A stretch of 64,000 nucleotides of DNA, from the IMG/VR virus record IMGVR_UViG_3300005534_000001, positions 1 through 64,000 of that record; one strand, given 5' to 3'. Positions 37,611-64,000 of the stretch are shown piece by piece; position 1 is the first letter of the stretch, and every line of letters starts with the position of its first letter. Below the pieces are notes generated by a model. It worked only from the letters and a program-made list of their open reading frames with translations. It was not told the origin of the DNA and did no database searches. Made by a program: the position numbers and the translations under genes. This stretch comes from a virus.

Positions 37611-37894
37611 TGGACAACCTTCGCACTCCGGAAGTAGTAGCGAAAGAACTTGAGCAACTTGCCGCCGATCTGCGCTCTGGAAAAGTTGAGCGATACCAAG
37701 CGCCAAAGTTGATTTCCAAGCTTGCGAATCGAGTTGAGAGAGCATGAAGCGTGATATCTACGGAAACCCTCGGATGTCTCCCGATGAGTGGATTGCTACT
37801 CGTATCGGCTGGGGCTGGGGAGTCGTGGTTGTCATGGGATTCGTGGCCTTTATCGTTGGCTTATGGGAAACTGCTAAACACTTTTAGAATCAGA

Positions 37895-38266: not shown

Positions 38267-38763
38267 GAAAAAACAGATTCACCAATTTCAAGGCATGGCT
38301 GGTTCTGACGCTGGTCATCGTTGCAATCTCAGGCTGCATCAAGCGGCAAGGTACCGGCAAGCCAGTTACGCCATTCGAGCAGGTGATGGTCTGGAATGAT
38401 GCTCTGGCGCAGACCAATAACAGCGTGGCCAAAGGGATCATAGCGGTAAGCTCTGGTACCTCTCCGCTGGTTATGCCGGACAAAGCAGCCGTGATTCTTC
38501 TCCAGCAGCGTAATATTGCAACAGCCGACCAGCAATTGACGATCATTTTCAAGACAGGGCAGGCCGGCGCAACACTTCAGGCAGCGCAGATCCAGGCGTT
38601 ACTCAGTCAGATCAAGGCGGCCTCACTGGTACTCGTTGATTCCGGAGCCATCGGCGTAAAGAATCCGGCGAGTAAGCAGACGTTCGATGCTGATATCCAA
38701 GCCATCGGAGATTTAATTACCAATATCACGAGCGGGTTGAAGTCGGCGGGGGTGATTCAATGA
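38263..38763 (+). CDS. lipoprotein
   Basis: Basic N-region, hydrophobic H-region, lipobox ISG-C. Confidence 0.75.
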   Translation: MRKNRFTNFKAWLVLTLVIVAISGCIKRQGTGKPVTPFEQVMVWNDALAQTNNSVAKGIIAVSSGTSPLVMPDKAAVILLQQRNIATADQQLTIIFKTGQAGATLQAAQIQALLSQIKAASLVLVDSGAIGVKNPASKQTFDADIQAIGDLITNITSGLKSAGVIQ

Positions 38764-48744: not shown

Positions 48745-49346
48745 CAGACGATCAATCACCAGAAACTACAAACGAAGAGCAGCCAAAGCCTAAGCGCAGA
48801 CACTTTATCCCCATCAAGGAGTCTCAGCTAGCTAAGAGCACAGCGGCCATTCTCATAGCCGAAGATCTGCTCACCGATGTCAAGATTGCTGAACGTGTCG
48901 GCATCAATCTAAAGACTCTTGGCAACTGGAAGCGCAATGAGCATTTCGCCGCTAAAGTTCTGGAGTACCAGAAAGCTTTTGCCGACCGCGCCCTAAAGCA
49001 TGGATTGGCCAACAAGGAAATCAGACTCCATGAGCTCGACAAGATGTATGCCGACCTGAAGCAGGTTATCCGGGAGCGGGGATCTTCCGAGGAAATGAAG
49101 AAAGTGCCTGGAGGTACTACTGGGCTAATCTGCAAGACCTACAAAGGCATCGGCATTAACCAGCAGGAGATTTTCGAGGTTGACAATCCTACCATCAAGC
49201 AACTGATTGCCATCCATGAGCAATATGCGCAAGAGCTTGGCCAGAAGATTGCCAAGATGGAAGTGGCATTTGGCAGTATTGCTGAGCGCATGGAAGCTGC
49301 TGAAGAGCGACTGAAGAACAGAATCCCGTCAACATGTGTGCAATAG
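48741..49346 (+). CDS. terS: terminase small subunit
   Basis: N-terminal HTH (IAERVGINLKTLGNWK), G..TGL...VD...EQ.AQELGQ; directly before terL. Confidence 0.75.
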   Translation: MTDDQSPETTNEEQPKPKRRHFIPIKESQLAKSTAAILIAEDLLTDVKIAERVGINLKTLGNWKRNEHFAAKVLEYQKAFADRALKHGLANKEIRLHELDKMYADLKQVIRERGSSEEMKKVPGGTTGLICKTYKGIGINQQEIFEVDNPTIKQLIAIHEQYAQELGQKIAKMEVAFGSIAERMEAAEERLKNRIPSTCVQ

Positions 49347-51829
49347 CAGCGCAAGAAGAAATCTATAACCGCCTTCATGATCGGCTGCTGGATTTCAAAT
49401 GGGATCCTTATGGATTTGCGCTTTACGCCTATCCTTGGGGTGAGGGGGAGCTGGCGAATTCTGCTGGTCCTCGTACTTGGCAGCGCGAAATCATGGAGAT
49501 TATTGGAGGACATCTCCAGAATCCCCAGACAAGATTTACGCCGTTACAAGTTGCTGTTTGTAGCGGCCACGGGATCGGCAAGCTACACTGTAAATCATTG
49601 GTAATAAATGATTTAAACGGCACAAAAAGATGGGGCGATATTCGGCCTGGGGATTTAGTTTTTGGTGGCGATGGAAGGCCAGTACGAGTCAAGTCCACTC
49701 ATGAGCAAGGAGTAAAGCCAATATATCGGGTTACATTCGATGATGGCTCATACACGCTTGTTGGCCTGGAACATCTATGGAATGTTCGCGGTCGCCAAGA
49801 AAGACGCAAGAAGTTAGAAGGATGGCGAACACTCACAACCGAACAGATTTTAGAGCTTGGAGTTCTGCGATCAAACGGCGTAGCACAGGCAAAGCAATGG
49901 GAAATACCGATTCAAGGGGCAGCGCAATTTGAGGAAAGAGAAATTGACCTTCATCCGTACTTTTTTGGGATATGGCTTGGCGATGGAACTAAAGGAATCC
50001 CGCAATATACTAAACCGTTCCCTGAATTGGTTGAGCGGCTTAGAAGTTTGGGGATGCAAGTCAATGAGCGCCCAGACGGCAAACACAAGAGAGTTATTGG
50101 GATATCTCATCTTCTCACCGATGCAGTCTTCAGTTGTGGCTCCCACGAAAGATACATCCCAGATTCCTACAAATTCAATACCGTTGAAAATCGGCGTGAA
50201 TTGCTTCGCGGCTTACTTGACACGGATGGCGAAGCAAATAGTTCTGGGAGTATTGGATACTCATCTACAAGTAAACGCCTTTGTGAAGATGTAATTTGGC
50301 TTGTCCGCTCTTTGGGCGGCAAGGCGATGATGCAGGATGCGGTAAAACATGGATGGTACCCAGATGGTGAAGGTGGAAGAGTTGAATGCCGGGATTGCTA
50401 CAGGGCCACAATTAACCTCGACTGGAATCCATTCACAATTGAGCATCGGCGAAAGGCGTGGAAACCATCTGAAGAGCGATATCTTAAACGCTGGATTGAG
50501 AGCATTGAGTATTCCCACGATGAGGACGCAATGTGCATCTCTGTTGATGCTCCAGATGGTCTTTATCTTGCCAATGATTTCATCGTAACGCACAATACGA
50601 GCCTGATTGCAATGTTGACTGCATGGGCCAAGAGCACATGCAGGGATTGCCGAGTCAAGATTACAGCGAACACTGGGCCGCAGTTAGACACCATCACAGT
50701 ACCAGAAGTATCAACTTGGTTCAGGCGGTTGATCAATGCGGATTGGTGGGACGTAAAAGCTACTTCGATCAAGGTAAGGGATACTAATTTTGAAAAGACA
50801 TGGCGAACAGATTTTGTCACTTGGAGCGCTAAAAATCCTTCCGCTTTTGCAGGCTTGCACAATTACGGGAAGCGAATCCTCTATATTTTCGATGAGGCAA
50901 GCGGAATTGATGACATTATCTGGGAAACAACGCAAGGTTCCATGTCGGATGAAAATACCGAGATCATCTGGCTTGCCTTCGGAAACCCGATTGAGCGAGA
51001 TGGGAGATTTGCAGAGTGTTTCGGCAAATTCGCCCATCGCTGGGTAAAGAAAAGAATTGATTCACGTACCGTCGAAGGAACCAACAAAGAGGCAATTCAG
51101 AAAGATGTTGACGATTGGGGCGAAGACTCAGACTTCGTTCGCGCTCGATGGCGCGGAGAGTTTCCACGTGCAGGCTCAAGCCAGTTCATCCCAAGTGATT
51201 CTGTAGCCTTCTGCCGAAAGTACAAAGCAACGGGCTACAGCGGCCTGCCAAAGATCATGGCGGTTGACGTGGCGCGGTTTGGCGATGATCAAACGACCAT
51301 CGGGTATCGGCAGGGAAGAAAGGCAGTCATTCTCGCAAAGTATCGCGGATTGGACACGGTTCAGGTAGCAGAACATGTTATTGAGTTTATGGAATCCGAA
51401 GATCCCGATGCAGTGGTCATCGACGGTGATGGTCTCGGTGCCGGAGTGGTCGATCACATTAAGCACCGTGGATTTGGGAAGAAAGTTTTCGAGTTTCATG
51501 GAGGGGCCACGCCGAACGATGTAGCGAAGTATTTCAATCGCCGTGCTGAGATTTGGGGATTAGGCCGTGACGCTCTTAAGGCAGGAATGGAAATTCCCGA
51601 TGATCCTGAGCTCGACTCTGACTTGACCGGAATAAAGTACGGATTTGGACCGAAGGGCCAGATTCAACTTGAGCGCAAAGAGGATATGAAGAAACGCGGA
51701 TTGAAGAGCCCAGATCTTGGAGATATGCTTATGATGACATTCGCAGTTAGGATCATGGCGAAAAAGAAAGAGACTGCGACTCGGCCAGTTCTTTCGAGTT
51801 ATGCTGGTAATTCTTGGATGGGAGCATGA
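49334..51829 (+). CDS. terL: terminase large subunit, intein-containing
   Basis: SGHGIGK[intein]TS, GLHN...IFDEASGI, FGNP, GEF, DVARFGDD, SPD.GD. Confidence 0.95.
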   Translation: MCAIAAQEEIYNRLHDRLLDFKWDPYGFALYAYPWGEGELANSAGPRTWQREIMEIIGGHLQNPQTRFTPLQVAVCSGHGIGKLHCKSLVINDLNGTKRWGDIRPGDLVFGGDGRPVRVKSTHEQGVKPIYRVTFDDGSYTLVGLEHLWNVRGRQERRKKLEGWRTLTTEQILELGVLRSNGVAQAKQWEIPIQGAAQFEEREIDLHPYFFGIWLGDGTKGIPQYTKPFPELVERLRSLGMQVNERPDGKHKRVIGISHLLTDAVFSCGSHERYIPDSYKFNTVENRRELLRGLLDTDGEANSSGSIGYSSTSKRLCEDVIWLVRSLGGKAMMQDAVKHGWYPDGEGGRVECRDCYRATINLDWNPFTIEHRRKAWKPSEERYLKRWIESIEYSHDEDAMCISVDAPDGLYLANDFIVTHNTSLIAMLTAWAKSTCRDCRVKITANTGPQLDTITVPEVSTWFRRLINADWWDVKATSIKVRDTNFEKTWRTDFVTWSAKNPSAFAGLHNYGKRILYIFDEASGIDDIIWETTQGSMSDENTEIIWLAFGNPIERDGRFAECFGKFAHRWVKKRIDSRTVEGTNKEAIQKDVDDWGEDSDFVRARWRGEFPRAGSSQFIPSDSVAFCRKYKATGYSGLPKIMAVDVARFGDDQTTIGYRQGRKAVILAKYRGLDTVQVAEHVIEFMESEDPDAVVIDGDGLGAGVVDHIKHRGFGKKVFEFHGGATPNDVAKYFNRRAEIWGLGRDALKAGMEIPDDPELDSDLTGIKYGFGPKGQIQLERKEDMKKRGLKSPDLGDMLMMTFAVRIMAKKKETATRPVLSSYAGNSWMGA
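49583..50596 (+). mobile_element. class-3-type intein with LAGLIDADG homing endonuclease (338 aa)
   Basis: Starts Leu, ends VTHN/T; block B EHLW, block F MCISV; FFGIWLGDG and LLRGLLDTDG. Confidence 0.9.
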
Positions 51830-52377
51830 CCGAAGTCCATACCAATCTCTTTGTCGGCTCTCAGGCAGACCTGACGCCGACAGTTCACGACTATGCAATC
51901 GTTCACGCAGCAAAAGACCCTTGGCACCGGCAAGCGGTAGGCTACACCGAACGAGCAGCGCCTAAAGATCATCCTGAATATCTGTTTGCGCATCGCCGGA
52001 ATCGGTTGAGCCTGAATCTGATTGATGCTGCCTATCCTCAATTCATTCCCGATGCGGTGATGGACGAAGGCTGCAAGTTTATCGGGAAGCATTTGGCCGC
52101 AGGCTCAAAAGTGCTGGTGCATTGCAATCAGGGACAGAGCAGAGGGCCGGGATTGGCGTTCTACTATCTTTGGAAATCAGCGTTATTGCCTGAAGAGTTT
52201 GAGGTTGCACTGGCTGAGTTCAAGAAGGTATATCCTGCATTTAATCCCGCTTCCGGTATTCTCGGGTTTCTGAAAGTACGGTGCGTGAAGCGTGGCGAAG
52301 TGTTGCAGGCTGAAACGATTGAAGAGCAATCGGAAGGCCCAGTTAGCGATGAAGAGTTTTTAGCCCGATTCGGGTAA
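51826..52377 (+). CDS. dual-specificity / Cys-based phosphatase
   Basis: VLVHCNQGQSRG (HCx5R); LFVGS; LNLID. Confidence 0.9.
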   Translation: MTEVHTNLFVGSQADLTPTVHDYAIVHAAKDPWHRQAVGYTERAAPKDHPEYLFAHRRNRLSLNLIDAAYPQFIPDAVMDEGCKFIGKHLAAGSKVLVHCNQGQSRGPGLAFYYLWKSALLPEEFEVALAEFKKVYPAFNPASGILGFLKVRCVKRGEVLQAETIEEQSEGPVSDEEFLARFG

Positions 52378-53267: not shown

Positions 53268-53465
53268 ATGCCAACTGGTACCCAAGACCCTAAATCGCTC
53301 TTCCCGTTCGGCACATCCGATCTGCGCCGACCAAGATTGAGCGGAGCGATGCGGAATTATGCGACCAAGCCAAAGGCACAGTTTAGGCCTCAGAAAATCG
53401 GGGCAATCAAGGCCAACAAATTGGTTTCCATTGCGGCTCTTTTGCCGAAGAAAGGTTACAGATGA
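53268..53465 (+). CDS. small basic protein (65 aa)
   Basis: Ends ...KLVSIAALLPKKGYR. Confidence 0.65.
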   Translation: MPTGTQDPKSLFPFGTSDLRRPRLSGAMRNYATKPKAQFRPQKIGAIKANKLVSIAALLPKKGYR

Positions 53466-53743
53466 TCCAACCTCTCCATGACCGCGTACTCGTTCGCCGA
53501 ATCCAACAAGAGCAAGGTTTGATTGTGCTCACCGATGCTGAAAAGTCGCGGCGCTGTGAAGTCTTGGCCGTTGGCCCTGGAAGATGGGATGCAGAACGAG
53601 AAGAATTTAAGCCAATCCAAGTTAAGGCTGGACAGACTGTGATTGTTTCCCCGTCAATCAACAATGAGGCATGGACCGACATCATCCAGCGCGGTGATGA
53701 AGTTCTGATTCAGGAAGCGGATATCTTGGTGGTGTGCGGGTGA
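53462..53743 (+). CDS. groES: co-chaperonin GroES
   Basis: IQPLHDRVLVRR, GLIVL.D, EVLAVGPG, VK.G..V, LI.E.DIL.V. Confidence 0.9.
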   Translation: MIQPLHDRVLVRRIQQEQGLIVLTDAEKSRRCEVLAVGPGRWDAEREEFKPIQVKAGQTVIVSPSINNEAWTDIIQRGDEVLIQEADILVVCG

Positions 53744-54103: not shown

Positions 54104-56419
54104 ATGCCAGCCCTCGTAGAAGCCACAGGTAGCCCCAAGCAAAAAGAAATAGATGAAGAAGAGCAAGCCAGAATTGATCTGGATGCTTTTCTGACTCTTG
54201 CGCGCAAGCGTTTCTCTATTGCTGAAGAGGCTGAGGCAGAAAACCGCAAAGCTTCTCTTGAAGATCTGGAATTTTTCACTGGAGAGCAGTGGCCGAACGA
54301 TGTCAAGGCCGCAAGAAGCGCCGATGGACGCCCATGCCTCACAATCAATCGGCTCAAGGGCATAAAGAATCAAGTCACGAACGAGCAGAGGCAGCAGAGG
54401 CCAGCAATTCAAGTAAACCCTCGTGGAGACGGAGCCAGCACGGAGACCGCCGAAGTCTATCAAGGGATAATACGAGACATTGAGGTAAACTCTGACGCTG
54501 AAATTGCCTATGACAGTTCATTCGAAGGAATGGTCATCGGTGGATTCTCGTACTTCCGCGTTCTCACTGATTACCTTCCCGGATTAAGTTTTGAGCAGGA
54601 ACTTAAGATCAAGCGGATCAAAAATCCCTTCACGGTTTACTTTGATCCAACCTGCATTGAACCTGATTATTCCGATGCAAACTGGGCCTTCATCATCGAA
54701 GACCTGTCGAAACAGGAATACAAAGCGCAGTTTCCTAAGTCTGAAGCCGCTTCGATGGTGGACTTCAGCAGTATTGGAGATCAATCGCCGGGATGGGCCG
54801 CAAAAGAGACAATTCGCATCGCTGAGTACTTCCATGTTGAGCACGATACCCAGCCGATTGTGCTTCTTGATGATAATCGCGTGATGCTCAAAGAACATGC
54901 GCCAAAAGATGCGGTAATCGTTAAATCCAGAGACATGATAGTTCGCCGCGTGGTCTGGACAAAGATCAATGCCATCGAGAAATTGAAAGAGACTTCTTGG
55001 CTTGGCCAGTGGATACCGATTATCCCGGTACTCGGCGACGATCTGGACGTAAACGGGAAAAGGTACCTTGCTGGATTGATCAGAAACGCAAAAGACGCAC
55101 AAAAGCAATACAACTACATGAACTCGGCGGCCACAGAGCAGATTGCATTGGCCACTAAAGCCCCATATTTGGCAGTGGAAGGCCAGATGGAAGGCTTTGA
55201 GAAAATGTGGGAACAGGCCAATGTCAGGAATTTCTCGTTCCTGTATTACAAGGCTGTTGATGTTCAAGGTAAACCCGCTCCTCCTCCGACACGCAATGCG
55301 GTAGAGCCACCTATTCAGGCAATGGCAGTGATGATCAGGCAGGCTGACAATGACCTGAAAAGTACTACAGGCATTTATGACGCATCTTTGGGGGAAAGAG
55401 GGCCAGACCAGTCAGGGAAGGCGATTCTAGCTCGACAGAAGCAGGGAGACGTTGCCACGCTCAACTTTAGCGACAATCTGGCGCGGTCGATTCGCTTTCT
55501 TGGCAAGCAATTGGTGGATTTGATTCCGAGAGTTTATACCGCAGCGCGAATCCAAAGAATCATCAAGCCAGATCAAACGGTTGATCATGTGGGAATATGG
55601 AATTCCTCAATGCATGATGCCGGTACCGACCCGCGCACATTGCCGGGAATGACCGATCCGTCAATCAAGAGGATCTTTGACATTGGTACAGGGCGCTACG
55701 ATGTAACGGTATCGGTTGGGCCTTCATATCAGTCGAAGAGGCAGGAAGCAGTTTCTTCGCAACTTGCGCTCATTCAGGCTGACCCTGATATTTTGAAGGT
55801 CGCTGGCGATCTGCTAATCAGGAACATGGATTGGCCGGGATCAAAAGAAATTGCTGACAGAGTAAAGAAGATGTTGCCTCCACAATTGCAAGACGATAAT
55901 GGAGATCCAGCAGCGCAACTCCAGAAGGCGCAATCTCAACTTCAGCAACTAAATCAGCAGCATGAATTATTGACTCAGCATCTTACTGCTGCCAATGAAA
56001 CGATCAAATCTAAGCAACAAGAGCAAGAGGCCAAGATGTCCATCGCCAAGGCTCAGATTGATGCCGATTTGATCAAGACGAAACTGGAACTTGAGAATAA
56101 ATTGGCGATTGCCGAAATCACTACCAAGGCCCAAGACCGTCAGCAGAGAGCTCAATTAGAACAGGATATGTGGATGGCGCTGCACAATTCGGCGCACGAT
56201 GCGGCAACTCAAGCGACAGATCAAACGCACGAAGCGGGAATGCAGACTGCCGACCAGCAGCATGAAGCACAACTTCAGCAAGCCCAACAGCAACATGAAG
56301 GCGAACAGGCCACCCAATCCCAAGGTGCAGAAGCAGACCAAGCTACTCAGGCCCAAGCAGCCGCACAACAGCAACAAGAATCGGCGCAAGCCGCAGAACC
56401 TCAAACTCCAGGAGAATAA
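54104..56419 (+). CDS. P22-like portal protein
   Basis: DLEF..GEQW, RPCLTINR, V.N.QRQ.RP, IPIIPV.G, KDAQ..YN, G.YDV.V..GPSY.SKRQE; Gln-rich C-terminal coiled coil. Confidence 0.92.
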   Translation: MPALVEATGSPKQKEIDEEEQARIDLDAFLTLARKRFSIAEEAEAENRKASLEDLEFFTGEQWPNDVKAARSADGRPCLTINRLKGIKNQVTNEQRQQRPAIQVNPRGDGASTETAEVYQGIIRDIEVNSDAEIAYDSSFEGMVIGGFSYFRVLTDYLPGLSFEQELKIKRIKNPFTVYFDPTCIEPDYSDANWAFIIEDLSKQEYKAQFPKSEAASMVDFSSIGDQSPGWAAKETIRIAEYFHVEHDTQPIVLLDDNRVMLKEHAPKDAVIVKSRDMIVRRVVWTKINAIEKLKETSWLGQWIPIIPVLGDDLDVNGKRYLAGLIRNAKDAQKQYNYMNSAATEQIALATKAPYLAVEGQMEGFEKMWEQANVRNFSFLYYKAVDVQGKPAPPPTRNAVEPPIQAMAVMIRQADNDLKSTTGIYDASLGERGPDQSGKAILARQKQGDVATLNFSDNLARSIRFLGKQLVDLIPRVYTAARIQRIIKPDQTVDHVGIWNSSMHDAGTDPRTLPGMTDPSIKRIFDIGTGRYDVTVSVGPSYQSKRQEAVSSQLALIQADPDILKVAGDLLIRNMDWPGSKEIADRVKKMLPPQLQDDNGDPAAQLQKAQSQLQQLNQQHELLTQHLTAANETIKSKQQEQEAKMSIAKAQIDADLIKTKLELENKLAIAEITTKAQDRQQRAQLEQDMWMALHNSAHDAATQATDQTHEAGMQTADQQHEAQLQQAQQQHEGEQATQSQGAEADQATQAQAAAQQQQESAQAAEPQTPGE

Positions 56420-56422
56420 CTT

Positions 56423-56824
56423 ATGGCACTACCAATGAATAAAATCGGCAATCATTCAGGGGCATGGGATTCATCGGCCCAAAGGGACGTACTCCAGAGC
56501 AATTGTCAATTACCTTTTGTTCTCACAGGTTCAGCCGATGCCCTCGCATGGCCGGCAAGTTACATTGTCAACTCATCCGTTGTGGATGCAATGACACTCG
56601 GTACTCCCATTGCCGGAGATCCATTGGTCGGTGGCGATGACGGGAAAACCATTACAGTTGCCGATGTCGGCGGCCATGCTCATACGATCACCACGGCTAA
56701 CAACGTGATCATCAACAGCAAGAAGACGCTCACATTCAATGGAACCATTGGTTCTTTCGTTGAGCTCCAGGCGTGGAATGGACTCTGGATAGTCTTGGCC
56801 AACACTGGAATAACAATCAGCTAA
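56423..56824 (+). CDS. beta-rich hypothetical virion protein
   Basis: AGGAG RBS; LGTP.AG...DDGK.I...AHT.T...L.A.NG.W pattern. Confidence 0.65.
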   Translation: MALPMNKIGNHSGAWDSSAQRDVLQSNCQLPFVLTGSADALAWPASYIVNSSVVDAMTLGTPIAGDPLVGGDDGKTITVADVGGHAHTITTANNVIINSKKTLTFNGTIGSFVELQAWNGLWIVLANTGITIS

Positions 56825-56842: not shown

Positions 56843-56873
56843 GGCCGATCAATCGAGGTCGGCCATTCTTTTT
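56843..56873 (+). terminator. intrinsic terminator
   Basis: GGCCGATC/GGTCGGCC stem followed by ATTCTTTTT. Confidence 0.65.
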
Positions 56874-56947
56874 GGTGTAACAGGAATGCAGAATGATTTT
56901 CATATTCGCAATTTTAATCGTATTTTTACTTCTCTGTGGGCAGATCA

Positions 56948-58969
56948 ATGAAAAAACTAATCTCGTTATTATTCCTGATTTCAACTCTGTCGTTTTGCCA
57001 GAGTTTTTCGACTGGGAGCATAACGGCTTCCGGTACGACATGTGCGACAACAAACGCTTGCATTGCTCTTCATCTCCCAATAAATACGGCCACGGTAGCA
57101 GTAACAATTACGGGTACATGGACAGGAACAATTCAATTCGAGGGAGCCGCAAACGATCCTTCGGTGACATTCGTTTCAGTCTCCGGCCAGCCGTTGCCAT
57201 CGGGTGTATTAGCTAGTTCGGCAACGGCAAATGGAACATGGATTTTTCCGGCAGGAGCACTTAGCGATTTTCATGTTAGGGAATCGGCGGCGATGACCGG
57301 AGCCGCCGTTGTTACTATCAATGCATCTCTTGGGGCTACTCCACAAGGGACAACGATTAGCGGCACAGTAAATCAAGGTGCAGCCAATGCTACTCCGTGG
57401 AATCAGAATATTTCACAGGTAGCAGGGCAGATTCTTGGAGCAATCGCAAATTATGGGACAACGCCGGGACCTGTTCTGGTGCCGGGGGTGAATGCATTTA
57501 TAACGAATGTGCCAGCAGTTTCCCAATCTGGTACATGGACAGTCCAACCTGGCAACACAGCGAACACAACGCCGTGGCTGTTTACCATTCAGCAGGGCGG
57601 CAATCCGGCAACGGTATCAGCGGGTGGTGCGCTCAAGGTGGACGGGAGCGCAGTCACGCAGCCGGTTAGCGGAACGGTCGCAACGTCAAATTTACCTAAC
57701 ACCGTCGATACTGGTACCGGAGCATCGGGAGCAAGCACAATTCGCGTTGCTCCTGGAACTGGGAACTTTACCGTTGTCCAGCCTACAGGCACCAATTTAC
57801 ACGTGGTGGCCGATACGGGCAGCACAATGACGGTAACCGGAAACGTGAGCACAGTTGGCACGGCTAGCAACAACGCAGGCGCACCAGCAGCAACAAGCAA
57901 TCTCGGCGTTCTTCCCGCAATCGCCAACGCGGCCAGCCCTTCTTGGACAGAAGGCAATCAGGTTCTCGCGAGCACCGATTTAACCGGCAGGCAGAGAGTA
58001 CGCGGCACAGCAACAAACAATAATGCGGCTCCTGGAGCGGACCAGATTGACATAATGCCGAACGTGGCCAATGCGGCCTCCCCGACTTGGGTAGAAGGCA
58101 ATTCAACAAAGGACAGCGTAGATCTCGCCGGGCGTAAGCGCACTTTTAACCCGGATCTCACGCCGGGAACCTGCACGATCACAGCTTCAGGTACAGCCAA
58201 CGGCTGCACAGTCACCATGAGCGGATACGCTGGTGCGGGATTCATTGTGACGGCAGGCGGGGCAGGAACGGCAACACTTGCGCCTTATATCGTTGGGCCT
58301 GATTGTTCCACAATTCGCACCACAGCAACGCAGATGATGGACGTTGCTAACGGAAGCGTAGTTTCCAGTGTTGCCAATCCGGCAACCGGCAAGGTGTATC
58401 AATTACTTGGGCCGCAAGCGGGAGATTGTAAAGTGGGAGTGTATGCCAGCGCATTTACGGCAAACATCACCATCCAATTGAGGGCAACCACGATACCGTT
58501 TGCTGGTCAAGGGTTTAATGTTAACGGTGGCACTTGGACACCGTGGCCTCTTTATACGAATGCGCCTTCGACCACTAACGGTCAACCGTTCTGGCAGAGC
58601 TATGTTGACCCTTGCGCGGCCCCCGGAGTTCTAAAGTCACACAAGTTCGCCAACATCACCACTTCAACTACAACGCAGATCATTGCTGTTTCCGGGTCCA
58701 CAAACATTTATATATGTGGGATTGACGTTCAGCTCAACTCAACCACCTCGAGCACTATCTTGTTTGAGCATGGCACCGGAGCGGCTTGCACTGGAACGGT
58801 ATCGGACACGGCAACCTATTCAAACGGCGGCCTTACTTCTGAAACTATTCACATGGGATTTGGAGCAGGAACTTATTACGCAACTGGAGCATCACAAGGC
58901 GTCTGTGCGGTGACTACCGTTGGCACTTCGCCAACAATTTCAGTGGACATCACGATGGTTCAGCAGTAG
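56948..58969 (+). CDS. Thr/Ala/Gly-rich fibre-like protein with predicted Sec signal peptide
   Basis: MKKLISLLFLISTLSFC|Q; LKVDGSAVTQPVSG fibre-like motif; internal ~48-aa duplication. Confidence 0.75.
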   Translation: MKKLISLLFLISTLSFCQSFSTGSITASGTTCATTNACIALHLPINTATVAVTITGTWTGTIQFEGAANDPSVTFVSVSGQPLPSGVLASSATANGTWIFPAGALSDFHVRESAAMTGAAVVTINASLGATPQGTTISGTVNQGAANATPWNQNISQVAGQILGAIANYGTTPGPVLVPGVNAFITNVPAVSQSGTWTVQPGNTANTTPWLFTIQQGGNPATVSAGGALKVDGSAVTQPVSGTVATSNLPNTVDTGTGASGASTIRVAPGTGNFTVVQPTGTNLHVVADTGSTMTVTGNVSTVGTASNNAGAPAATSNLGVLPAIANAASPSWTEGNQVLASTDLTGRQRVRGTATNNNAAPGADQIDIMPNVANAASPTWVEGNSTKDSVDLAGRKRTFNPDLTPGTCTITASGTANGCTVTMSGYAGAGFIVTAGGAGTATLAPYIVGPDCSTIRTTATQMMDVANGSVVSSVANPATGKVYQLLGPQAGDCKVGVYASAFTANITIQLRATTIPFAGQGFNVNGGTWTPWPLYTNAPSTTNGQPFWQSYVDPCAAPGVLKSHKFANITTSTTTQIIAVSGSTNIYICGIDVQLNSTTSSTILFEHGTGAACTGTVSDTATYSNGGLTSETIHMGFGAGTYYATGASQGVCAVTTVGTSPTISVDITMVQQ

Positions 58970-58981
58970 CCATATTCAGCA

Positions 58982-61141
58982 ATGATAATTAAATTGATCT
59001 CAGCATGTACCATCCTGTGCTCTTCTATTTTCGGACAGAGCATCAATTCCTCATCCCAACCGGGCGCAACCGCTGATGTTCAAATCAGCAATGCAATTGC
59101 CGCACTCGCTGGCAATGGAACCGTGGTCGCTGATTACCTCACAGTTCAGACCTTTGCAGCCTGTCCATTGTGGGGAAGCAACAAGATCATTCTTGAACTT
59201 CGTCCTGTTCAGTTCAATTTAAATTCAGCCTGCACTATTCCGATTAACGTTTCACTTAAGATGTGGAACGGTGCTCTTCTTGCTCCAGCAGCCAATATTA
59301 ATTTTTTCATAAATGGCAATGTGGATGCGCAACCTCAGCAGCGAATCGTAAACATCACCAATGGGAATGTGGTATTTCAGCACGTTCCAACGATCTGGTG
59401 GGACTGGTACGGAGCGGCAGACCTCGCTAATTCAGACGGCCCGATTCAGGCAGGCTTGAACGCGCTGGCATTGACAGGCGGGGCAGCAGCGCGGAAACCT
59501 CCATTCCTTTGTGTCCCAGGCGGGAACTATACGCTTCATTCGCGGCCATTGCATATTGCAACCGGCAACGTGATTTTTGGTGGACCTGGCAGCGGATCGG
59601 AGTCATGCGGATTTCGGGAGAATTGGGGATTCGGGCCAAGCCTCGTGATCGGACCAAGCCCAGCGCAAGGGTATTGCGGACAAGGTACGACCTGCACGGT
59701 ATCAGCTCCCTTGGTTGCTGGATTGACCACGAGCGGCGGGAATGCTCTCAACTTCGATGGCATTCATCCGTACTGGTTTAATTTGTCTCTCGACACCAAA
59801 GAGTTGAACGCTATGAATGGCCTCACGCAATTGACGTTAGAGGCATTCGTAAACACTAGCGCCGTGGCAACGGGCATGATCATGGGATCATCGGGCAGGT
59901 TCGCTCAATCCGATCCAGTTACCCAGGCATTCAGTCTGCTTCTTGTGGGATCGGTGCCAACCTGCAAAATCAACACGAGCAACGGGATGGTACAGGTCAA
60001 CGGCGGCAGTCTCACAGTAGGAACCACGGCGCATGTTGCCTGTTCGTGGGATGGCTCAACGGTTCGCCTATTCGTGGCTGGCGTAGAAACCGCCTCGGGA
60101 GCAGCAACCGGCACCCTACTGAAGAAAGATTCCGAGGATGTGACCATCGGACCAGCGTTGCAATCATGGCCGGATGCTGGAGTTCTGACCAACGCCTGCA
60201 AATGCACGATTGACAGCCCAAAGATAAGTAACATCGCGCTCTATACGAGTGATGCCGGGTTCACTCCTCCAACGGCGAAACTCGTAAAAGATGCCAACAC
60301 TTTAGCCCTTTTGAACTTTGCAAACTGCTTTGACGTGTTCTGCGACTTTCAGAGCAAAGATGCTAACGGGTTCCTGTTTTTTCGCAACGCCACATTTGCA
60401 GCCGCGCTGAACAATGTGCAACTTAAAGACCTCGTAATCAGCACAGGAACGGGGTTCGGAGGCGGTCTCTACTGGTACCAAACAAACCGATGGCAGCAGA
60501 ACAACTTGCACATTGCGTTGAACACTGGAGCAGCAGATTACTTCTGGAACAACTCGTTCATTGGCAGTGCGAGGACTCTATACATTGATGCTGGAGGGAC
60601 TGGCAATGGGCCTCTAGGCCATGATCTCATCGGCCTTGGGATGGTCGGTGCGGTCGGCGTGATTGAACTTGATGACGTGAATGTCACGGGCGGTCAATAC
60701 CAGATTGTGGGCAATGGTGGGAGCGGTCAATTCAATCGTCTTTACACTGCCCCAACTACAGAAACGTCCTTTTCAGTATTTGCCAAGGGAAGCGGAGGAT
60801 CTGAAACCTTTCAGTTTAACAATCTGGCTTGTGATGCCGAAGTATCGGGAGCGGGAGCAACCTTTCAGGCTTGCGCTTACATTTCGAACATGCGAACTGT
60901 TCAATTCATAGGCGGGGAACTGGAAGCAACTCAGCAATCTCCGCTTTGGGTGGATGGAGGAGAGTCAGTAACCGTTATCGGTTCTCGTTTTCTTCAGACG
61001 ATAAGCTATCCAGCGCAGATCGTGCATGTGGTTAATCCACCGACGCAAACGATACACATATTCAACGCGGTTCAGGCTGGAACACAATTCGGGCATACCC
61101 TGCCTTGGTGCGACAACATGACCGCTTGCTTGGTTCAGTAA
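58982..61141 (+). CDS. beta-helix + LamG-domain protein with predicted Sec signal peptide
   Basis: MIIKLISACTILCSSIFG|Q; WYGA...IQA.L...L.VP.G.Y; LTLEAFV...HVA.SWDG..VRLFV.G...ISN.A.Y....FTPP (LamG). Confidence 0.75.
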   Translation: MIIKLISACTILCSSIFGQSINSSSQPGATADVQISNAIAALAGNGTVVADYLTVQTFAACPLWGSNKIILELRPVQFNLNSACTIPINVSLKMWNGALLAPAANINFFINGNVDAQPQQRIVNITNGNVVFQHVPTIWWDWYGAADLANSDGPIQAGLNALALTGGAAARKPPFLCVPGGNYTLHSRPLHIATGNVIFGGPGSGSESCGFRENWGFGPSLVIGPSPAQGYCGQGTTCTVSAPLVAGLTTSGGNALNFDGIHPYWFNLSLDTKELNAMNGLTQLTLEAFVNTSAVATGMIMGSSGRFAQSDPVTQAFSLLLVGSVPTCKINTSNGMVQVNGGSLTVGTTAHVACSWDGSTVRLFVAGVETASGAATGTLLKKDSEDVTIGPALQSWPDAGVLTNACKCTIDSPKISNIALYTSDAGFTPPTAKLVKDANTLALLNFANCFDVFCDFQSKDANGFLFFRNATFAAALNNVQLKDLVISTGTGFGGGLYWYQTNRWQQNNLHIALNTGAADYFWNNSFIGSARTLYIDAGGTGNGPLGHDLIGLGMVGAVGVIELDDVNVTGGQYQIVGNGGSGQFNRLYTAPTTETSFSVFAKGSGGSETFQFNNLACDAEVSGAGATFQACAYISNMRTVQFIGGELEATQQSPLWVDGGESVTVIGSRFLQTISYPAQIVHVVNPPTQTIHIFNAVQAGTQFGHTLPWCDNMTACLVQ

Positions 61142-61232
61142 CTCCAAAACAAATTAATCAGGACTTATAAATCACGCCCATTGGTCGGCATTTTAATAGG
61201 CCAAGAATTAATCAGCTTAAAGGAGCGATATT

Positions 61233-62216
61233 ATGAATGAAATTACCATTGTTTCTTCCACGGATACACAAGCCGAAGTAAACGCAGCTCTGGGAATTGA
61301 AGAGCCCAAAGCGACTGAAGTAAAAGAAGAACCCAAACCAGAAGTCAAAGAAACTCCAGCAGTTGAGAAGCCTGCAAAAGAATCCAAGGCTGCCAACGAA
61401 ACAGAAGAAGAAAGAGCAGAAGCCGAGAAAGACAAAGGCAAAGGCGGCTGGCAGCGCCGTATCGACAAACTGACCAGAGAAAAATACGAACTTCTTGAAG
61501 AGAATCGCAATCTTCGCGCTGGCAAGGAACGCTTGGGGGCTGTGCCCGCTGTGGCGACCGAGGAAGAGCCAAAGAAACCAGTAGTCGAAGATGATCCACA
61601 GCCCAAGAAGGAAGCCTTCACCGATTATGAAGAGTACCTTGATGCGCGAGCAGCATGGAGAGCGCGGCAAGAGTTCAAGGCCCTGACAGAGAAACAATCC
61701 AAGGAGTCTGATCAAGCCGCAGAAAATCAGCGCATCCAGGAAACATTCGACAGTTACAACAAGAGATTCGAGCAAGCCAAATCCGACATCCCTGATCTTG
61801 AAGAGAAACTGCTTGAGGCAGCCCAAGCCGGTGTAAATATCCCGCAAGCAGCAATTATGGCCATCTATGAATTGGAGAATGGCCCAGAAGTTTCTTACTA
61901 CATCGCTACCAATTCAGATGTAGCAGAAAAACTCAACAAGATGACCACTCTCCGCGCAGTGGCCGAAATTGGCCGCATTGCCTATACCTTGCAGAATAAT
62001 CCAAAGGAAGAGACCAAAGCGGAACCAAAGCCGAAGGCCGAAGAGCCTAAGCCTGCAAAAGTTGAAGCCCCAAAGACAAAGGCCGCGAGTCCTCCACCTG
62101 AGCCTATAGCTCCAGTGGGCGGCTCCTCAACCAATGCGAGCGTCCCGGATTTCGACAAAATGAGCATGTCTGAATACACGGCATGGTACAAAAAGAATTA
62201 TCCAGGCGTCCGCTAA
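61233..62216 (+). CDS. capsid scaffolding protein
   Basis: Glu/Lys-rich helical protein; QRRIDKLT, ENGPEV.YY, PP.PI.PV, MSM.EY; directly before coat gene. Confidence 0.85.
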   Translation: MNEITIVSSTDTQAEVNAALGIEEPKATEVKEEPKPEVKETPAVEKPAKESKAANETEEERAEAEKDKGKGGWQRRIDKLTREKYELLEENRNLRAGKERLGAVPAVATEEEPKKPVVEDDPQPKKEAFTDYEEYLDARAAWRARQEFKALTEKQSKESDQAAENQRIQETFDSYNKRFEQAKSDIPDLEEKLLEAAQAGVNIPQAAIMAIYELENGPEVSYYIATNSDVAEKLNKMTTLRAVAEIGRIAYTLQNNPKEETKAEPKPKAEEPKPAKVEAPKTKAASPPPEPIAPVGGSSTNASVPDFDKMSMSEYTAWYKKNYPGVR

Positions 62217-62232
62217 ATTCAGGAGAATTTAA

Positions 62233-63435
62233 GTGAACACCCTTTTAACTTCCAGTATCATCACCAAAGAAGCCGTACGGGTGCTTGAGAACAATCTTAC
62301 TCTGACCAAGCACATCAACCGCGACTACGATGATCAATTCGCCAAAAAGGGCGCAGTCATCGGCAATACCATCAACGTACGCAAACCGCCCCGTTACATC
62401 GGTACCACTGGATCTGCGCTCTCAATTGAAGATGCGACCGAGACCAGCGTACCGTTGACACTCACCACTCAATTCCACGTGGACATCGCCTTCACCACGG
62501 TCGATTTGACCTTGAGCATCAACGATTTCAGCCGCCAATTCATCAAGCCTGCCATCGCGGCCATTGCCAACAAGGTAGACTTTGATGCCTCGTTGCTCTA
62601 CCAGACGGTTTACAACACCATCGGCACTCCGGGAACTACGCCCAACGCACTGCTGACTTATCTTCAGGCACAGCAGCGCTTGAACGAAGAAGCGGCTCCT
62701 TTGGATGAGCGCAGCCTGTGCATGACTCCTGCCATGAATGCTGCCATCGTGGACTCTCTCAAGGGATTGTTTCAGTCCTCTGAAAAAATCCGCGAACAGT
62801 ACGAAAAGGGCATGATCGGGATGTCCATTGGTCTTGAATGGTACATGGATCAGAACCTGCGCACCCATAAGATTGGGCCTCTTGGCGGTACACCTCTGGT
62901 AAGCGGTGCCGGACAGACAGGTACCTCTTTGCTGACCTCTGGATGGACGGCTGCTGCGGCTTCCCGGCTCAAAAAGGGCGATGTATTCACGATTGCCAAT
63001 GTGAATGCGGTGAACCCTCAGAATCGGCAATCCACTGGCTCACTTCGCCAGTTTGTCGCGACGGCTGATTTCTCTTCGGCTGCGGATGGAACGGGAACCA
63101 TTTCTATCTCGCCCGCTCTGACCGTTGCTGGCCCCTTCCAGACCGTGGATGCACTTCCGGCCAATGCCGCTGCAATCACTGTCTTTGGCGCGGCCAATAC
63201 CCAAACTCCTCAAGGTCTCGTGTTCCATCGGGACGCCTTCACGATGGGCGTTGCCGATCTCATGATGCCCCAGGGAGTCGATATGAACAACAGGGTATCG
63301 GACAAGCAACTTGGATTGAGCCTTCGCCTTGTCCGCGCCTACGACATCAACACGGACCGCCTGCCATGCCGCACAGACATCCTGTACGGTTTCGCGCCGA
63401 TTTACCCGGAACTTTGCTGTAGGATAGCGGGATAG
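62233..63435 (+). CDS. P22-like major capsid protein
   Basis: NTLLT...IT.EA..VLEN.L, R.YD..FA..GA.IG.T.NVR.P, WYMDQN, FHRDAFT, R.DILYG...YPE. Confidence 0.93.
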   Translation: MNTLLTSSIITKEAVRVLENNLTLTKHINRDYDDQFAKKGAVIGNTINVRKPPRYIGTTGSALSIEDATETSVPLTLTTQFHVDIAFTTVDLTLSINDFSRQFIKPAIAAIANKVDFDASLLYQTVYNTIGTPGTTPNALLTYLQAQQRLNEEAAPLDERSLCMTPAMNAAIVDSLKGLFQSSEKIREQYEKGMIGMSIGLEWYMDQNLRTHKIGPLGGTPLVSGAGQTGTSLLTSGWTAAAASRLKKGDVFTIANVNAVNPQNRQSTGSLRQFVATADFSSAADGTGTISISPALTVAGPFQTVDALPANAAAITVFGAANTQTPQGLVFHRDAFTMGVADLMMPQGVDMNNRVSDKQLGLSLRLVRAYDINTDRLPCRTDILYGFAPIYPELCCRIAG

Positions 63436-63453
63436 CTAGATAACCACCATCCA

Positions 63454-63483
63454 AAGAGGGGTGCGCAATCGCCCCTCTTATTC
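63454..63483 (+). terminator. hairpin / terminator after the coat gene
   Basis: AAGAGGGG/CCCCTCTT stem. Confidence 0.6.
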
Positions 63484-63505
63484 ACACTTCAGGAGAACAA
63501 AGTTT

Positions 63506-64000
63506 ATGAAACACGTGAAAGCAATCATTCTTTTCTGTCTACTGGTGGTTTTGGCGGGAACTGGATTTGGTCAGGCCACTCTGCAATCAACAACCGTTTC
63601 GGCTGCTGTAGGATTGAACGATCAGTCAATCGTCGTTGCCTCAGCCACTGGTTTTGTCGCTCCGAACAATGGAGCAATTGCCAGCATCGTATTCATTGAC
63701 CAAGAAGCACTGGGAGTCCAGTCAATTTCCGGCACTACCATTGGCGTCATTCGTGGATATGGTGGAACCCGATCTACTGCTCACGCTTCAGGCACGACAA
63801 CCTATATTGGGCCGCCTAATTACTACGTGTCGTTTCCACAAGCTGGAGCCTGCACAGCAGCCAATCAGGTAGTTTTGCCGACAATCAATATCACCAGCGG
63901 ATTGCAGTACAACTGCCTTGGCGGTGTGTGGGTAGCAATCAATCCGTTGCCTACCAAGTTGTTTTTCCCTGCCGGAACTGCTTCGGTGACCTCATTCAAT
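63506..64000 (+). CDS. decoration-protein-like ORF with predicted Sec signal peptide, runs off the window end
   Basis: Not in ORF track. AGGAG RBS; MKHVKAIILFCLLVVLAGTGFG|QATLQSTTVSAA...IDQE...V.RGY.GT...AH.SG. Confidence 0.8.
   Translation, partial: MKHVKAIILFCLLVVLAGTGFGQATLQSTTVSAAVGLNDQSIVVASATGFVAPNNGAIASIVFIDQEALGVQSISGTTIGVIRGYGGTRSTAHASGTTTYIGPPNYYVSFPQAGACTAANQVVLPTINITSGLQYNCLGGVWVAINPLPTKLFFPAGTASVTSFN

What the first reader, a model, noticed from the sequence alone, without database searches (positions are those of the whole stretch)
56948..64000. Three head-module proteins carry Sec signal peptides, each with Gln at +1
Seen: ORFs 56948 (MKKLISLLFLISTLSFC|Q) and 58982 (MIIKLISACTILCSSIFG|Q) lie between portal and scaffold. 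ORF 63506 (MKHVKAIILFCLLVVLAGTGFG|Q) lies right after the coat gene. All have basic + hydrophobic leaders, beta-rich fibre/decoration-like bodies and multiple Cys. Established: tailed-phage heads assemble in the cytoplasm and structural proteins normally lack export signals; +1 Gln can cyclise to pyroglutamate after SPase I cleavage. Inference: decoration or fibre proteins are exported, folded and disulfide-bonded in the periplasm, and join virions at lysis, or they remodel the host surface. Either would be an unusual assembly route.
Basis: partly seen in the sequence, partly recalled or inferred. Interest (0 to 1): 0.8.

Follow-up and report, generated by a model that had tools for sequence, protein, structure and literature searches.

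The report
Phage head-module proteins carrying export signals
A complete 92.5-kb short-tailed phage puts real bacterial secretion signals on fibre-, lectin- and spike-like proteins encoded among its head genes. One belongs to a large family always encoded right after the coat gene, so parts that look like virion appendages apparently mature outside the cytoplasm where tailed-phage particles are built.

Summary
ORFs at 56948, 58982 and 63506 (A, B, C) begin with Sec/signal-peptidase-I leaders followed by Gln. Two more such proteins (D, E) lie beyond the window in the same circular 92.5-kb genome.

The leaders are real. Homologues keep a leader in front of the same first domain. In C's family, 120 of 126 leader-bearing members have Gln at the same column. 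124 of 126 carry a conserved Cys pair, which all five leaderless members lack.

C belongs to a large family. In 42 of 46 viral contigs its gene lies directly behind a P22-type coat gene. The leader was gained or lost at least twice on the coat tree. C has a small N-terminal beta domain and a TNF-like lectin head.

A and B are an insertion between portal and scaffold. A is a mosaic fibre protein; B combines a pectate-lyase-like region with a LamG domain.

Cultured Cellulophaga phage phi18:3 has three leader-plus-Gln proteins annotated as virion proteins from MS/MS.

Export and oxidative folding are well supported. Attachment to the particle is inferred, not shown.

The host is unclear: the Gln rule is published as specific to Bacteroidetes, but this phage uses Shine-Dalgarno sites.

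The scan has noted the same theme in at least 171 other genomes. I found no paper describing this route.

The parts
54104..56419 (+). P22-type portal gene (leaderless)
   Evidence: PF16510, E 3e-165
56423..56824 (+). gp133, small beta-rich protein without a leader or known family
56843..56874 (+). Intrinsic-terminator-like hairpin (8 bp, 6 GC) plus U-run between gp133 and A
56948..56998 (+). Leader of A (17 aa, ..LSFC|Q)
   Evidence: homologues P0070 and L011 orf 9941 carry their own leaders before the same domain
56999..57322 (+). A, first mature domain (about residues 18-125) with conserved Cys32/Cys38
   Evidence: 41% identity to P0070 residues 26-129. The domain also occurs inside leaderless fibre proteins.
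57323..58594 (+). A, central fibre repeats shared mosaically with many phage tail-fibre-like proteins
   Evidence: 630 homologues; about 22 of the best 120 have leaders. Model confidence is low here.
58595..58969 (+). A, C-terminal jelly-roll domain (residues 550-673, 4 Cys) and stop
   Evidence: pLDDT about 85. Generic jelly roll, Z at most 9.3. Among the 120 listed homologues it occurs only in four proteins with hydrophobic N termini; three meet the leader rule and one lacks the basic residue.
58982..59035 (+). Leader of B (18 aa, ..SIFG|Q)
   Evidence: P0144 (62% identity) keeps ..SLGAFS|QTLN; P0145 and P0146 have lipoprotein-like starts.
59036..61141 (+). Mature B: beta-helix-like protein with LamG/ConA-like lectin domain (residues 281-419), 16 Cys
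   Evidence: PF13385, E 9e-10. Nearest Atlas cluster is PF12708 plus PF13385, score 0.93.
61233..62216 (+). Scaffold gene (leaderless)
   Evidence: phrog_8865
62233..63435 (+). P22-type coat gene (leaderless)
   Evidence: PF11651, E 2e-44
63506..63571 (+). Leader of C (22 aa, ..GFG|Q), preceded by AGGAG
   Evidence: The model shows helix 2-18 apart from the domain. Gln sits at this column in 120 of 126 family members.
63572..63949 (+). C, N-terminal beta domain (residues 23-148) with Cys116/Cys137
   Evidence: pLDDT about 90. Z 10 to 9in6_M and 9.4 to 8jov_1. The Cys pair is present in 124 of 126 leader-bearing and 0 of 5 leaderless members.
63950..64000 (+). C, start of the disordered linker. 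The gene continues to genome position 64603, where residues 201-365 form a TNF-like/legume-lectin jelly roll.

Best explanation
A, B and C (with D and E further along the genome) are made as Sec preproteins, cut by signal peptidase I just before Gln, and folded with disulfide bonds in the periplasm. That part rests on comparative evidence and I put it at about 0.85.

C is this phage's copy of a conserved gene found right behind the coat gene across a large clade of uncultured podophages with P22-type heads. It has a small N-terminal beta domain, a flexible linker and a TNF-like sugar-binding head. Relatives make the same protein without a leader and without the Cys pair, from the same position behind the coat gene. 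I therefore read C as a capsid-associated lectin fibre or decoration protein. It would mature outside the cytoplasm and meet the finished particles only once the inner membrane is breached at lysis. This step is inferred; I put it at about 0.45-0.5.

A (a mosaic fibre-repeat protein with a jelly-roll tip) and B (a beta-helix/LamG protein) are an accessory cassette inserted between portal and scaffold, behind a terminator-like hairpin. They are exported glycan-binding or glycan-cutting proteins. Whether they ride on the virion is open.

The +1 Gln most likely reflects the host's own secretion habit, the pyroglutamate 'Q-rule', which protects exported proteins from aminopeptidases.
For: Leaders and Gln. 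Even Cys counts with many close pairs in all five leader proteins, against 0-4 Cys in leaderless virion proteins.

C family:
- 5771 cluster representatives at E<=1e-3; 122 of the best 143 have leaders.
- The leader/Gln boundary is fixed in the alignment, and leaderless members start at that boundary.
- 120 of 126 have Gln at +1. 124 of 126 leader-bearing members have both Cys; 0 of 5 leaderless members do.
- In 42 of 46 viral loci the gene 4-72 nt upstream is a coat homologue (28-43% identity). 32 of these have a leader and 10 do not.
- The leader state changed at least twice on the coat tree. Sister to the window's small leader-bearing clade is a pair (L080/L082) with leaderless, Cys-free C; L082 has the most similar coat, 43% identity.

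Fold of C: an N-domain like chains in a phage capsid map and a portal-tail map (Z 10 and 9.4), and a C-domain like the TNF-like lectins BC2L-C, PLTL and Pgp3 (Z about 9). The N-domain also repeats in a solved minor tail protein.

Precedent for a capsid cement gene lying next to the coat gene: PhiXacm4-11 gp25/gp26.

Precedent for leader-bearing proteins in purified virions: Cellulophaga phage phi18:3 gp085-087 (..FGYS|Q..GVSA|Q..GLNA|Q), annotated 'structural protein, experimental MS/MS proteomics'. phi46:3 gp079-083 are alike.

A and B: homologues keep leaders. The insertion is absent from Xanthomonas phage PBR31 and from the related loci. Terminator-like hairpin.

Q-rule and its use by phages: PMC5837995, PMC10653852, PMC10367356.
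Against: No experiment and no trained signal-peptide predictor was available. No result here shows that any of these proteins touches a particle.

A and B show no recognisable particle-anchoring domain. B's pectate-lyase-like region begins right at the mature N terminus, and its distant relatives look like cellular lipoproteins. In A's family, leaderless members carry other, typical fibre N termini that A lacks.

The phage also has a leaderless fibre candidate at 78448-79722, so it need not depend on exported parts for adsorption.

What 9in6 chain M is could not be checked.

MS/MS detection in virion preparations could reflect co-purifying envelope material. The database note also does not say whether the leader was removed.

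The Bacteroidota O-glycosylation sequon is not enriched. Shine-Dalgarno use argues against a Bacteroidota host, so the Q-rule explanation needs a host group not yet surveyed.
Confidence: 0.5

Rival explanations
1. The proteins are exported but never become part of the virion. They act on the infected cell's envelope or surroundings. They could bind or cut surface or nascent polysaccharide to mask or destroy receptors, which would block superinfection and keep progeny from sticking to debris. They could also loosen capsule or biofilm, or serve as free decoys. In working terms this resembles T5 Llp or the lambda Lom/Bor late-operon exported proteins (from my own knowledge).
For: A and B are a non-conserved insertion behind a terminator-like hairpin and lack Shine-Dalgarno sites. 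No anchor domain was found in A or B. B's relatives look like cellular lipoproteins. Lectin, LamG and beta-helix folds fit glycan binding or cutting. A leaderless fibre candidate exists at 78448. P. gingivalis phage Q-rule proteins were read as host-surface modifiers (PMC10367356).
Against: C's gene keeps the slot directly behind the coat gene in 42 of 46 loci, and leaderless forms share that slot. That is hard to explain for a protein unrelated to the head. D's start overlaps the stop of a leaderless protein whose N terminus resembles a fibre anchor (TAATG). Leader-bearing phi18:3 proteins are annotated as found in virions by MS/MS.
Confidence: 0.35
2. The hydrophobic N termini are not cleaved export signals. 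Either the true starts lie downstream, as in the public gene call of A at Met116, or the segments are uncleaved membrane anchors or assembly handles, and the proteins stay on the cytoplasmic side.
For: The public gene call for A starts at Met116. B's leader is weakly hydrophobic (score 2.1), and the -1/-3 residues of A (C, S) and B (G, I) are not the classical Ala-X-Ala. No SignalP run was possible.
Against: Residues 22-124 of A are conserved behind other leaders. In C's family the leader varies in sequence but keeps its shape, and the Gln boundary is fixed. Leaderless members begin exactly there, and the Cys pair tracks the leader: 124 of 126 against 0 of 5. Cys counts are even in all five proteins. 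An AGGAG site sits before C's ATG.
Confidence: 0.05
3. A and B alone are recently acquired cellular exoprotein genes (passenger 'moron' cargo) with no role in the phage's own cycle. Their place in the head module is accidental.
For: The insertion is specific to this genome. A terminator-like hairpin lies upstream. B's architecture is common in bacterial exoproteins.
Against: The G+C content of the A/B region (0.51-0.52) matches the genome. A's repeats and both end domains are shared mainly with proteins on viral contigs, next to ejection and tail genes. The genes are on the same strand and tightly packed with late genes.
Confidence: 0.1

Closest known systems
Cellulophaga phage phi18:3 gp085-gp087 (KC821620) and phi46:3 gp079-gp083 (KC821622), Pachyviridae
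   Same: They are consecutive large late proteins with signal-peptidase-I-type leaders followed by Gln. RefSeq names them pectate lyase, virion structural protein and tail fiber. The phi18:3 proteins are annotated as structural from MS/MS.
   Different: No sequence similarity to A, B or C was found. Their host is a true Bacteroidota member that does not use Shine-Dalgarno sites. Their genes lie away from the coat gene. The leaders are not remarked on in the records, and I found no paper discussing them.
Q-rule secreted proteins of Porphyromonas gingivalis phages (PMC10367356; noted again in PMC10653852)
   Same: They are phage-encoded proteins whose leaders expose Gln, read as adaptation to the host's Sec, signal peptidase I and glutaminyl cyclase pathway.
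   Different: Those are proteins of unknown function in temperate siphophage-like prophages, and were proposed to modify the host surface. Here the proteins are fibre-, lectin- or beta-helix-like and interleaved with head and tail genes, and one is a conserved gene right behind the coat gene.
Capsid cement, decoration and head-fibre proteins encoded next to the major capsid gene (PhiXacm4-11 gp26; GP4 gp1 and A1002 gp49; phi29 gp8.5 head fibre, from my own knowledge)
   Same: The gene sits immediately beside the coat gene. The protein is small to medium in size with a capsid-proximal domain and an outward-facing domain. It is dispensable-looking and variable.
   Different: All of those are leaderless and assemble in the cytoplasm. 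C has a cleavable leader and a disulfide pair. No homology was shown, and capsid binding by C is untested.
TNF-like bacterial lectins (BC2L-C N-terminal domain, Photorhabdus PLTL) and Chlamydia Pgp3 C-domain
   Same: The fold of C residues 201-365 (Z about 9, rmsd 2.7-3.3 A, 113-122 aligned residues). These are trimeric sugar-binding or secreted proteins.
   Different: Identity is only 10-16%. The similarity is in fold alone, Z is in the range where common arrangements occur, and no sugar-binding residues were checked.
Exported phage proteins that are not virion parts (T5 Llp, lambda Lom and Bor; from my own knowledge)
   Same: They are encoded in or beside late structural operons, carry export signals and act at the envelope.
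   Different: Those are small lipoproteins or outer-membrane barrels with no fibre or lectin architecture and no leaderless virion counterparts.

Membership tests
Sec/signal peptidase I signal peptide | Basic n-region, uncharged hydrophobic h-region of about 8-15 residues, and a polar c-region | tested here: met
   A has MKK plus LISLLFLISTL. B has MIIK plus LISACTILCSSIF (weaker). C has MKHVK plus AIILFCLLVVLAG. The model of C shows a separate helix at residues 2-18.
Sec/signal peptidase I signal peptide | Small residues at -1 and -3, and cleavage at a fixed place relative to the mature fold | tested here: met
   The -3/-1 residues are S/C (A), I/G (B) and G/G (C). In C's family the boundary column is fixed (Gln in 120 of 126), and leaderless members start there.
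Sec/signal peptidase I signal peptide | Actual translocation and cleavage | not testable with these tools
   There is indirect support only: even Cys counts and a Cys pair that occurs only with the leader. SignalP was not on hand.
Bacteroidetes Q-rule substrates | Gln at +1 after the type I leader | tested here: met
   5 of 5 leaders in this genome and 120 of 126 in C's family.
Bacteroidetes Q-rule substrates | Host belongs to Bacteroidota, the only phylum for which the rule is published | tested here: inconclusive
   No host was found; the genome-contig scans gave no hit. Shine-Dalgarno use is unlike a Cellulophaga phage and argues against a typical Bacteroidota host. The papers surveyed few phyla.
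Capsid decoration / cement / head-fibre protein (for C) | Gene adjacent to the major capsid gene, conserved across relatives | tested here: met
   In 42 of 46 viral loci a coat homologue lies 4-72 nt upstream.
Capsid decoration / cement / head-fibre protein (for C) | Structural likeness to a protein resolved on a capsid | tested here: inconclusive
   The N-domain matches 9in6_M (capsid of Vibrio phage VP1): Z 10, rmsd 2.6 A, 78 residues, 22% identity. What that chain is could not be checked.
Capsid decoration / cement / head-fibre protein (for C) | Physical binding to the assembled capsid | not testable with these tools
   This needs virion proteomics, cryo-EM or binding assays.
Podophage tailspike / depolymerase (for B) | Right-handed beta-helix body | tested here: inconclusive
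   Pfam finds only LamG. The nearest Atlas cluster is PF12708 plus LamG, score 0.93, and homologue P0145 carries PF12708. B was not folded here.
Podophage tailspike / depolymerase (for B) | N-terminal particle-binding domain | tested here: inconclusive
   None was recognised by Pfam, PHROGs, NCBIfam or PDB sequence search. The pectate-lyase-like motif region starts at the mature N terminus.
Type IX secretion cargo | C-terminal sorting domain (TIGR04183 / PF18962 type) | tested here: not met
   No such hit in Pfam or NCBIfam at E<=1 for A, B, C, D or E.
Phage moron (for A and B) | Insertion between conserved late genes with its own terminator and promoter | tested here: inconclusive
   The insertion is absent from relatives, and a terminator-like hairpin lies upstream. 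No promoter-like site was found in front of A.

The most novel reading that the evidence does not exclude
In a large, uncultured clade of podophages with P22-type heads, and in cultured Cellulophaga phages, outer virion parts are routinely exported by Sec, trimmed before Gln and disulfide-bonded in the periplasm. These parts include a coat-adjacent lectin fibre and, in many genomes, the fibres and spikes. They are fitted to cytoplasm-built particles only after the inner membrane is breached at lysis. This would be a two-compartment assembly route not described for tailed phages. Its hosts would also extend the pyroglutamate 'Q-rule' beyond Bacteroidota.
Probability: 0.35. Interest if true: 0.9.

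Novelty: new variant of a known kind. Interest (0 to 1): 0.72.

Why it matters
Textbook assembly of tailed phages takes place entirely in the cytoplasm. If receptor-binding or decoration proteins are exported and added at lysis, several things change:
- how fibre and spike genes should be annotated; gene callers already clip such leaders, as happened with A
- how such proteins should be produced for phage engineering or as depolymerase enzymes, since they would need oxidative folding
- how the last minutes of infection should be understood

C's family offers a clean natural experiment. The same gene in the same slot exists with leader plus disulfide and without either. Cultured Cellulophaga phages make the question testable at the bench now.

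The mismatch between +1 Gln and Shine-Dalgarno use also suggests that the published 'Bacteroidetes-only' Q-rule has a wider host range.

Tried and rejected
- Complex prediction with two coat copies plus C residues 23-148 gave no verdict (score 0.00). This is neither for nor against binding.
- tblastn of A against cultured phages found no match. C and leaderless C-type queries hit only an N-domain-like module in cyanomyophage structural proteins. D gave weak tailspike and pectin-lyase hits.
- The ~94-111-kb contigs holding leaderless A homologues are not relatives of this phage.
- The model of A is poor except for its C-domain, whose matches are generic jelly rolls.
- The Bacteroidota O-glycosylation sequon D[ST][AILVMT] is not enriched: 0-2 sites against 1-3.4 expected.
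- No type IX secretion sorting domain was found.
- The Acidobacteriota podophage Tunturi_3, of similar size and G+C, is unrelated and has no leaders in its structural module. Portal hits point only to ~36-40-kb proteobacterial podophages at about 40% identity.
- A Pfam scan of candidate lysis-region genes found no holin, endolysin or spanin family, so the lysis route is assumed and not shown.
- The VP1 structure paper and the Cellulophaga proteomics paper are not held.
- Literature searches for exported tail fibres or structural proteins of tailed phages found nothing relevant.
Full report
**What the DNA is**

The window is the first 64 kb of a single 92,527-bp contig whose ends overlap by 110 bp, so it is a complete, circularly assembled phage genome.

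The late region is a P22-type podophage module. In order it holds:
- large terminase with an intein-like insert
- a phosphatase-like gene
- a GroES-like gene
- portal, 54104-56419
- a 133-residue protein
- A, then B
- scaffold, then coat (62233-63435)
- C
- two small paralogues
- adaptor and tail hub
- a 110-residue protein whose stop overlaps the start of D
- ejection proteins
- a leaderless fibre-like gene at 78448

Xanthomonas phage PBR31 (coat 48% identical) has the same backbone without A and B.

**The observation**

A genome-wide scan with a simple hydrophobicity rule finds five leaders of the signal-peptidase-I type: A, B, C, D (68255, 806 aa) and E (84484 on the minus strand, 212 aa). 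It also finds one lipoprotein-type leader at 38263. All five type I leaders are followed by Gln.

The mature proteins hold 10, 16, 4, 14 and 20 cysteines, all even numbers and many in close pairs. Portal, scaffold, coat, adaptor, hub, ejection proteins and the leaderless fibre hold 0-4.

**Are the leaders real, or are the starts wrong?**

The public gene call of A begins at Met116, which would remove the leader. But residues 22-124 of A are conserved in proteins that carry their own leaders immediately upstream: P0070 at 41% identity, and an ORF on viral contig L011. The Cys32/Cys38 pair is conserved too. B's closest homologue (62% identity) keeps a hydrophobic segment and Gln at the same place, and two distant ones begin like lipoproteins.

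C gives the clearest case.
- A profile search of 1.8 billion cluster representatives finds 5771 hits at E<=1e-3. Of the best 143, 122 have leaders.
- I aligned 131 members that have the N-domain at their N terminus. Of the 126 with a leader, 120 have Gln in the same column as C's Gln23.
- The five leaderless members begin (MATVTID..., MAKTTT...) at the position of the mature N terminus.
- The two cysteines of the N-domain are present in 124 of 126 leader-bearing members and in none of the five leaderless ones.

A leader that varies in sequence, a fixed cleavage boundary and a disulfide pair that appears only with the leader together argue strongly for export, cleavage and oxidative folding. 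SignalP was not available.

**What the proteins are**

*C (365 aa).* The model has a mean pLDDT of 77. It shows the leader as a separate helix, an N-terminal beta domain (residues 23-148, pLDDT about 90), a disordered linker (149-200) and a C-terminal jelly roll.
- The C-domain matches TNF-like lectins (BC2L-C N-domain, PLTL), the Pgp3 C-domain and legume lectins at Z about 9. It also matches the distal domains of phage depolymerases and spikes in the viral library.
- The N-domain matches a chain in the capsid map of Vibrio phage VP1 (9in6_M; Z 10, rmsd 2.6 A, 78 residues, 22% identity) and a chain of the GP4 portal-tail complex (Z 9.4).
- Its sequence motif also recurs inside a solved minor tail protein and as up to 30 repeats in giant proteins.
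- I could not establish what 9in6 chain M is.

*A (673 aa).* It is a mosaic. Its first domain also occurs inside leaderless fibre proteins. Its central repeats are shared with hundreds of tail-fibre-like proteins, about a fifth of which have leaders. Its C-terminal jelly roll (four Cys) occurs, among the 120 listed homologues, only in four proteins with hydrophobic N termini; three meet my leader rule and the fourth lacks a basic residue.

*B (719 aa).* It has a LamG/ConA-like domain. It resembles clusters that combine a pectate-lyase-like beta-helix with LamG.

None of the five leader proteins has a type IX secretion sorting domain.

**The key comparative result**

A scan of IMG/VR with C-family patterns returned 46 loci. 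In 42 of them the gene 4-72 nt upstream is a homologue of this phage's coat protein (28-43% identity). The order portal, scaffold, coat, C-family gene, adaptor, hub recurs.

In 32 of those 42 loci the C-family gene has a leader, and in 10 it has none. On a maximum-likelihood tree of the coat proteins, well-supported branches force at least two changes of leader state. The window's coat groups with two other leader-bearing loci (L090, L067). The sister of that group is the L080/L082 pair, which has leaderless, Cys-free C genes, and L082 has the most similar coat (43% identity).

So C is not a stray secreted gene. It is a conserved head-module gene that has switched between a cytoplasmic and an exported form. 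Genes for capsid cement or decoration proteins commonly sit next to the coat gene in podophages, for example PhiXacm4-11 gp25/gp26.

A and B, by contrast, are specific to this genome. They follow an intrinsic-terminator-like hairpin (56843-56864 plus a U-run) and lack Shine-Dalgarno sites.

**A precedent in culture**

I followed a lead from earlier notes of this scan. In Cellulophaga phage phi18:3 the consecutive proteins gp085, gp086 and gp087 begin with MKNKITIIMILMSISFGYS|Q, MKKTIYILSILLLTISGVSA|Q and MKHTFSIVLFFILSIGLNA|Q. GenBank annotates them as 'structural protein; annotation based on experimental MS/MS proteomics analysis'. phi46:3 gp079-083 are alike, and RefSeq names them pectate lyase, virion structural protein and tail fiber.

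This shows that leader-bearing, spike-like proteins have been reported in purified particles of a cultured phage. It does not show that the leader is removed, or that the proteins are truly attached.

In the library held here the nearest discussion is of Porphyromonas phages. Their Q-rule proteins of unknown function were proposed to modify the host surface (PMC10367356, PMC10653852). Searches for exported tail fibres or structural proteins of tailed phages found nothing else.

**How it most likely works**

*Supported by comparison of relatives (no experiment):* the proteins carry Sec leaders, the cut falls before Gln, and the exported forms have paired cysteines.

*Inferred:* after export the Gln cyclises to pyroglutamate, which stabilises exported proteins against aminopeptidases (PMC10653852). 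The proteins fold with disulfides in the periplasm.

*Inferred for C:* its conserved place behind the coat gene and its interchangeability with leaderless forms suggest that it binds the head. It would meet the particles when holin lesions join cytoplasm and periplasm, before or as the outer membrane gives way. That holins make very large holes, and that outer-membrane disruption is a separate last step, is my own knowledge of lambda-type lysis. I found no lysis genes by Pfam here.

For D, the overlap of its start codon with the stop of a leaderless 110-residue protein with a fibre-anchor-like N terminus points the same way.

For A and B the evidence does not decide between extra virion fibres and free exported glycan-binding or glycan-cutting proteins.

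**The Gln and the host**

Published work calls the Q-rule exclusive to Bacteroidetes, but it surveyed few phyla. Several results here do not fit a typical Bacteroidota host:
- This phage has Shine-Dalgarno-like sites before 51 of 150 ORFs against an 11.5% background, with clear AGGAG before gp133, scaffold, coat and C.
- The C-family contigs have 47-67% G+C, with such sites before 18 of 22 C genes.
- A genuine Bacteroidota phage, phi46:3, has them before only 4 of 51 genes, below background.

The five leader proteins here belong to unrelated families, so +1 Gln looks like a property of the host rather than of one protein family. The host is therefore probably a diderm lineage outside typical Bacteroidota that also follows a Q-rule. 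I could not identify it.

**Verdict**

The theme has been noted by this scan in at least 171 other genomes, so this genome is one more case. It adds a conserved, coat-adjacent family in which the leader and a disulfide pair appear and disappear together. I rate it a new variant of a known kind (phage decoration and fibre proteins, here exported), with high interest because cultured Cellulophaga phages make it testable.

Noticed in passing
window 49334-51829: The large terminase (831 aa) carries an intein-like insert with a LAGLIDADG homing-endonuclease domain (PF14528 at residues 287-330). The insert ends ..VTHN|T.
   Followed up: no
window 56948 / public call P0005: The public gene call of A starts at Met116 and so hides its leader and first domain. 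Clipping of this kind may hide exported phage proteins in databases.
   Followed up: partly
whole genome; L045-L090: +1 Gln after every type I leader occurs together with clear Shine-Dalgarno use and mid to high G+C. This suggests a Q-rule host group outside typical Bacteroidota, contrary to the published 'exclusive' statement.
   Followed up: partly
genome 67923-68255 and 68255-70675 (L026:4923-7675): A leaderless 110-aa protein has a fibre-anchor-like N terminus (..PTREWLQFW..). It is translationally coupled (TAATG) to D, an 806-aa leader-bearing, weakly pectate-lyase-like protein with 14 Cys, at the spike-adaptor slot of related podophages.
   Followed up: partly
genome 83846-84484, minus strand (L027:1846-2484): E is a 212-aa protein with leader ..SNA|QQ and 20 cysteines. 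It has MXAN_6577-like Cys-rich repeats (NCBIfam, E 3e-9) and lies far from the structural genes.
   Followed up: no
window 37751-38266 and 38263-38763: Two overlapping genes; the second has a lipoprotein-type leader (..AISGC). They may be a spanin pair, but no family hit was found.
   Followed up: no
genome 64651-65121 and 65172-65669 (L026:1651-2669): Two paralogous small genes lie between C and the adaptor gene. A homologue of the first follows the C-family gene in loci L053 and L079.
   Followed up: no
L047 (viral contig), ORF of 593 aa between adaptor and hub: A leader-bearing homologue of this phage's leaderless fibre-like gene 78448-79722. This is a third fibre family that exists in both leader-bearing and leaderless forms.
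   Followed up: no
L001, L002, L011, L018 (viral contigs): Unrelated podophage-like contigs carry runs of two to five large leader-bearing proteins right after ejection-protein-like genes. Some have +1 Gln and some +1 Ala.
   Followed up: partly
window 51814-52377 and 53462-53743: A dual-specificity-phosphatase-like gene (HCNQGQSRG) and a GroES-like gene sit between terminase and portal, as in Xanthomonas phage PBR31.
   Followed up: no
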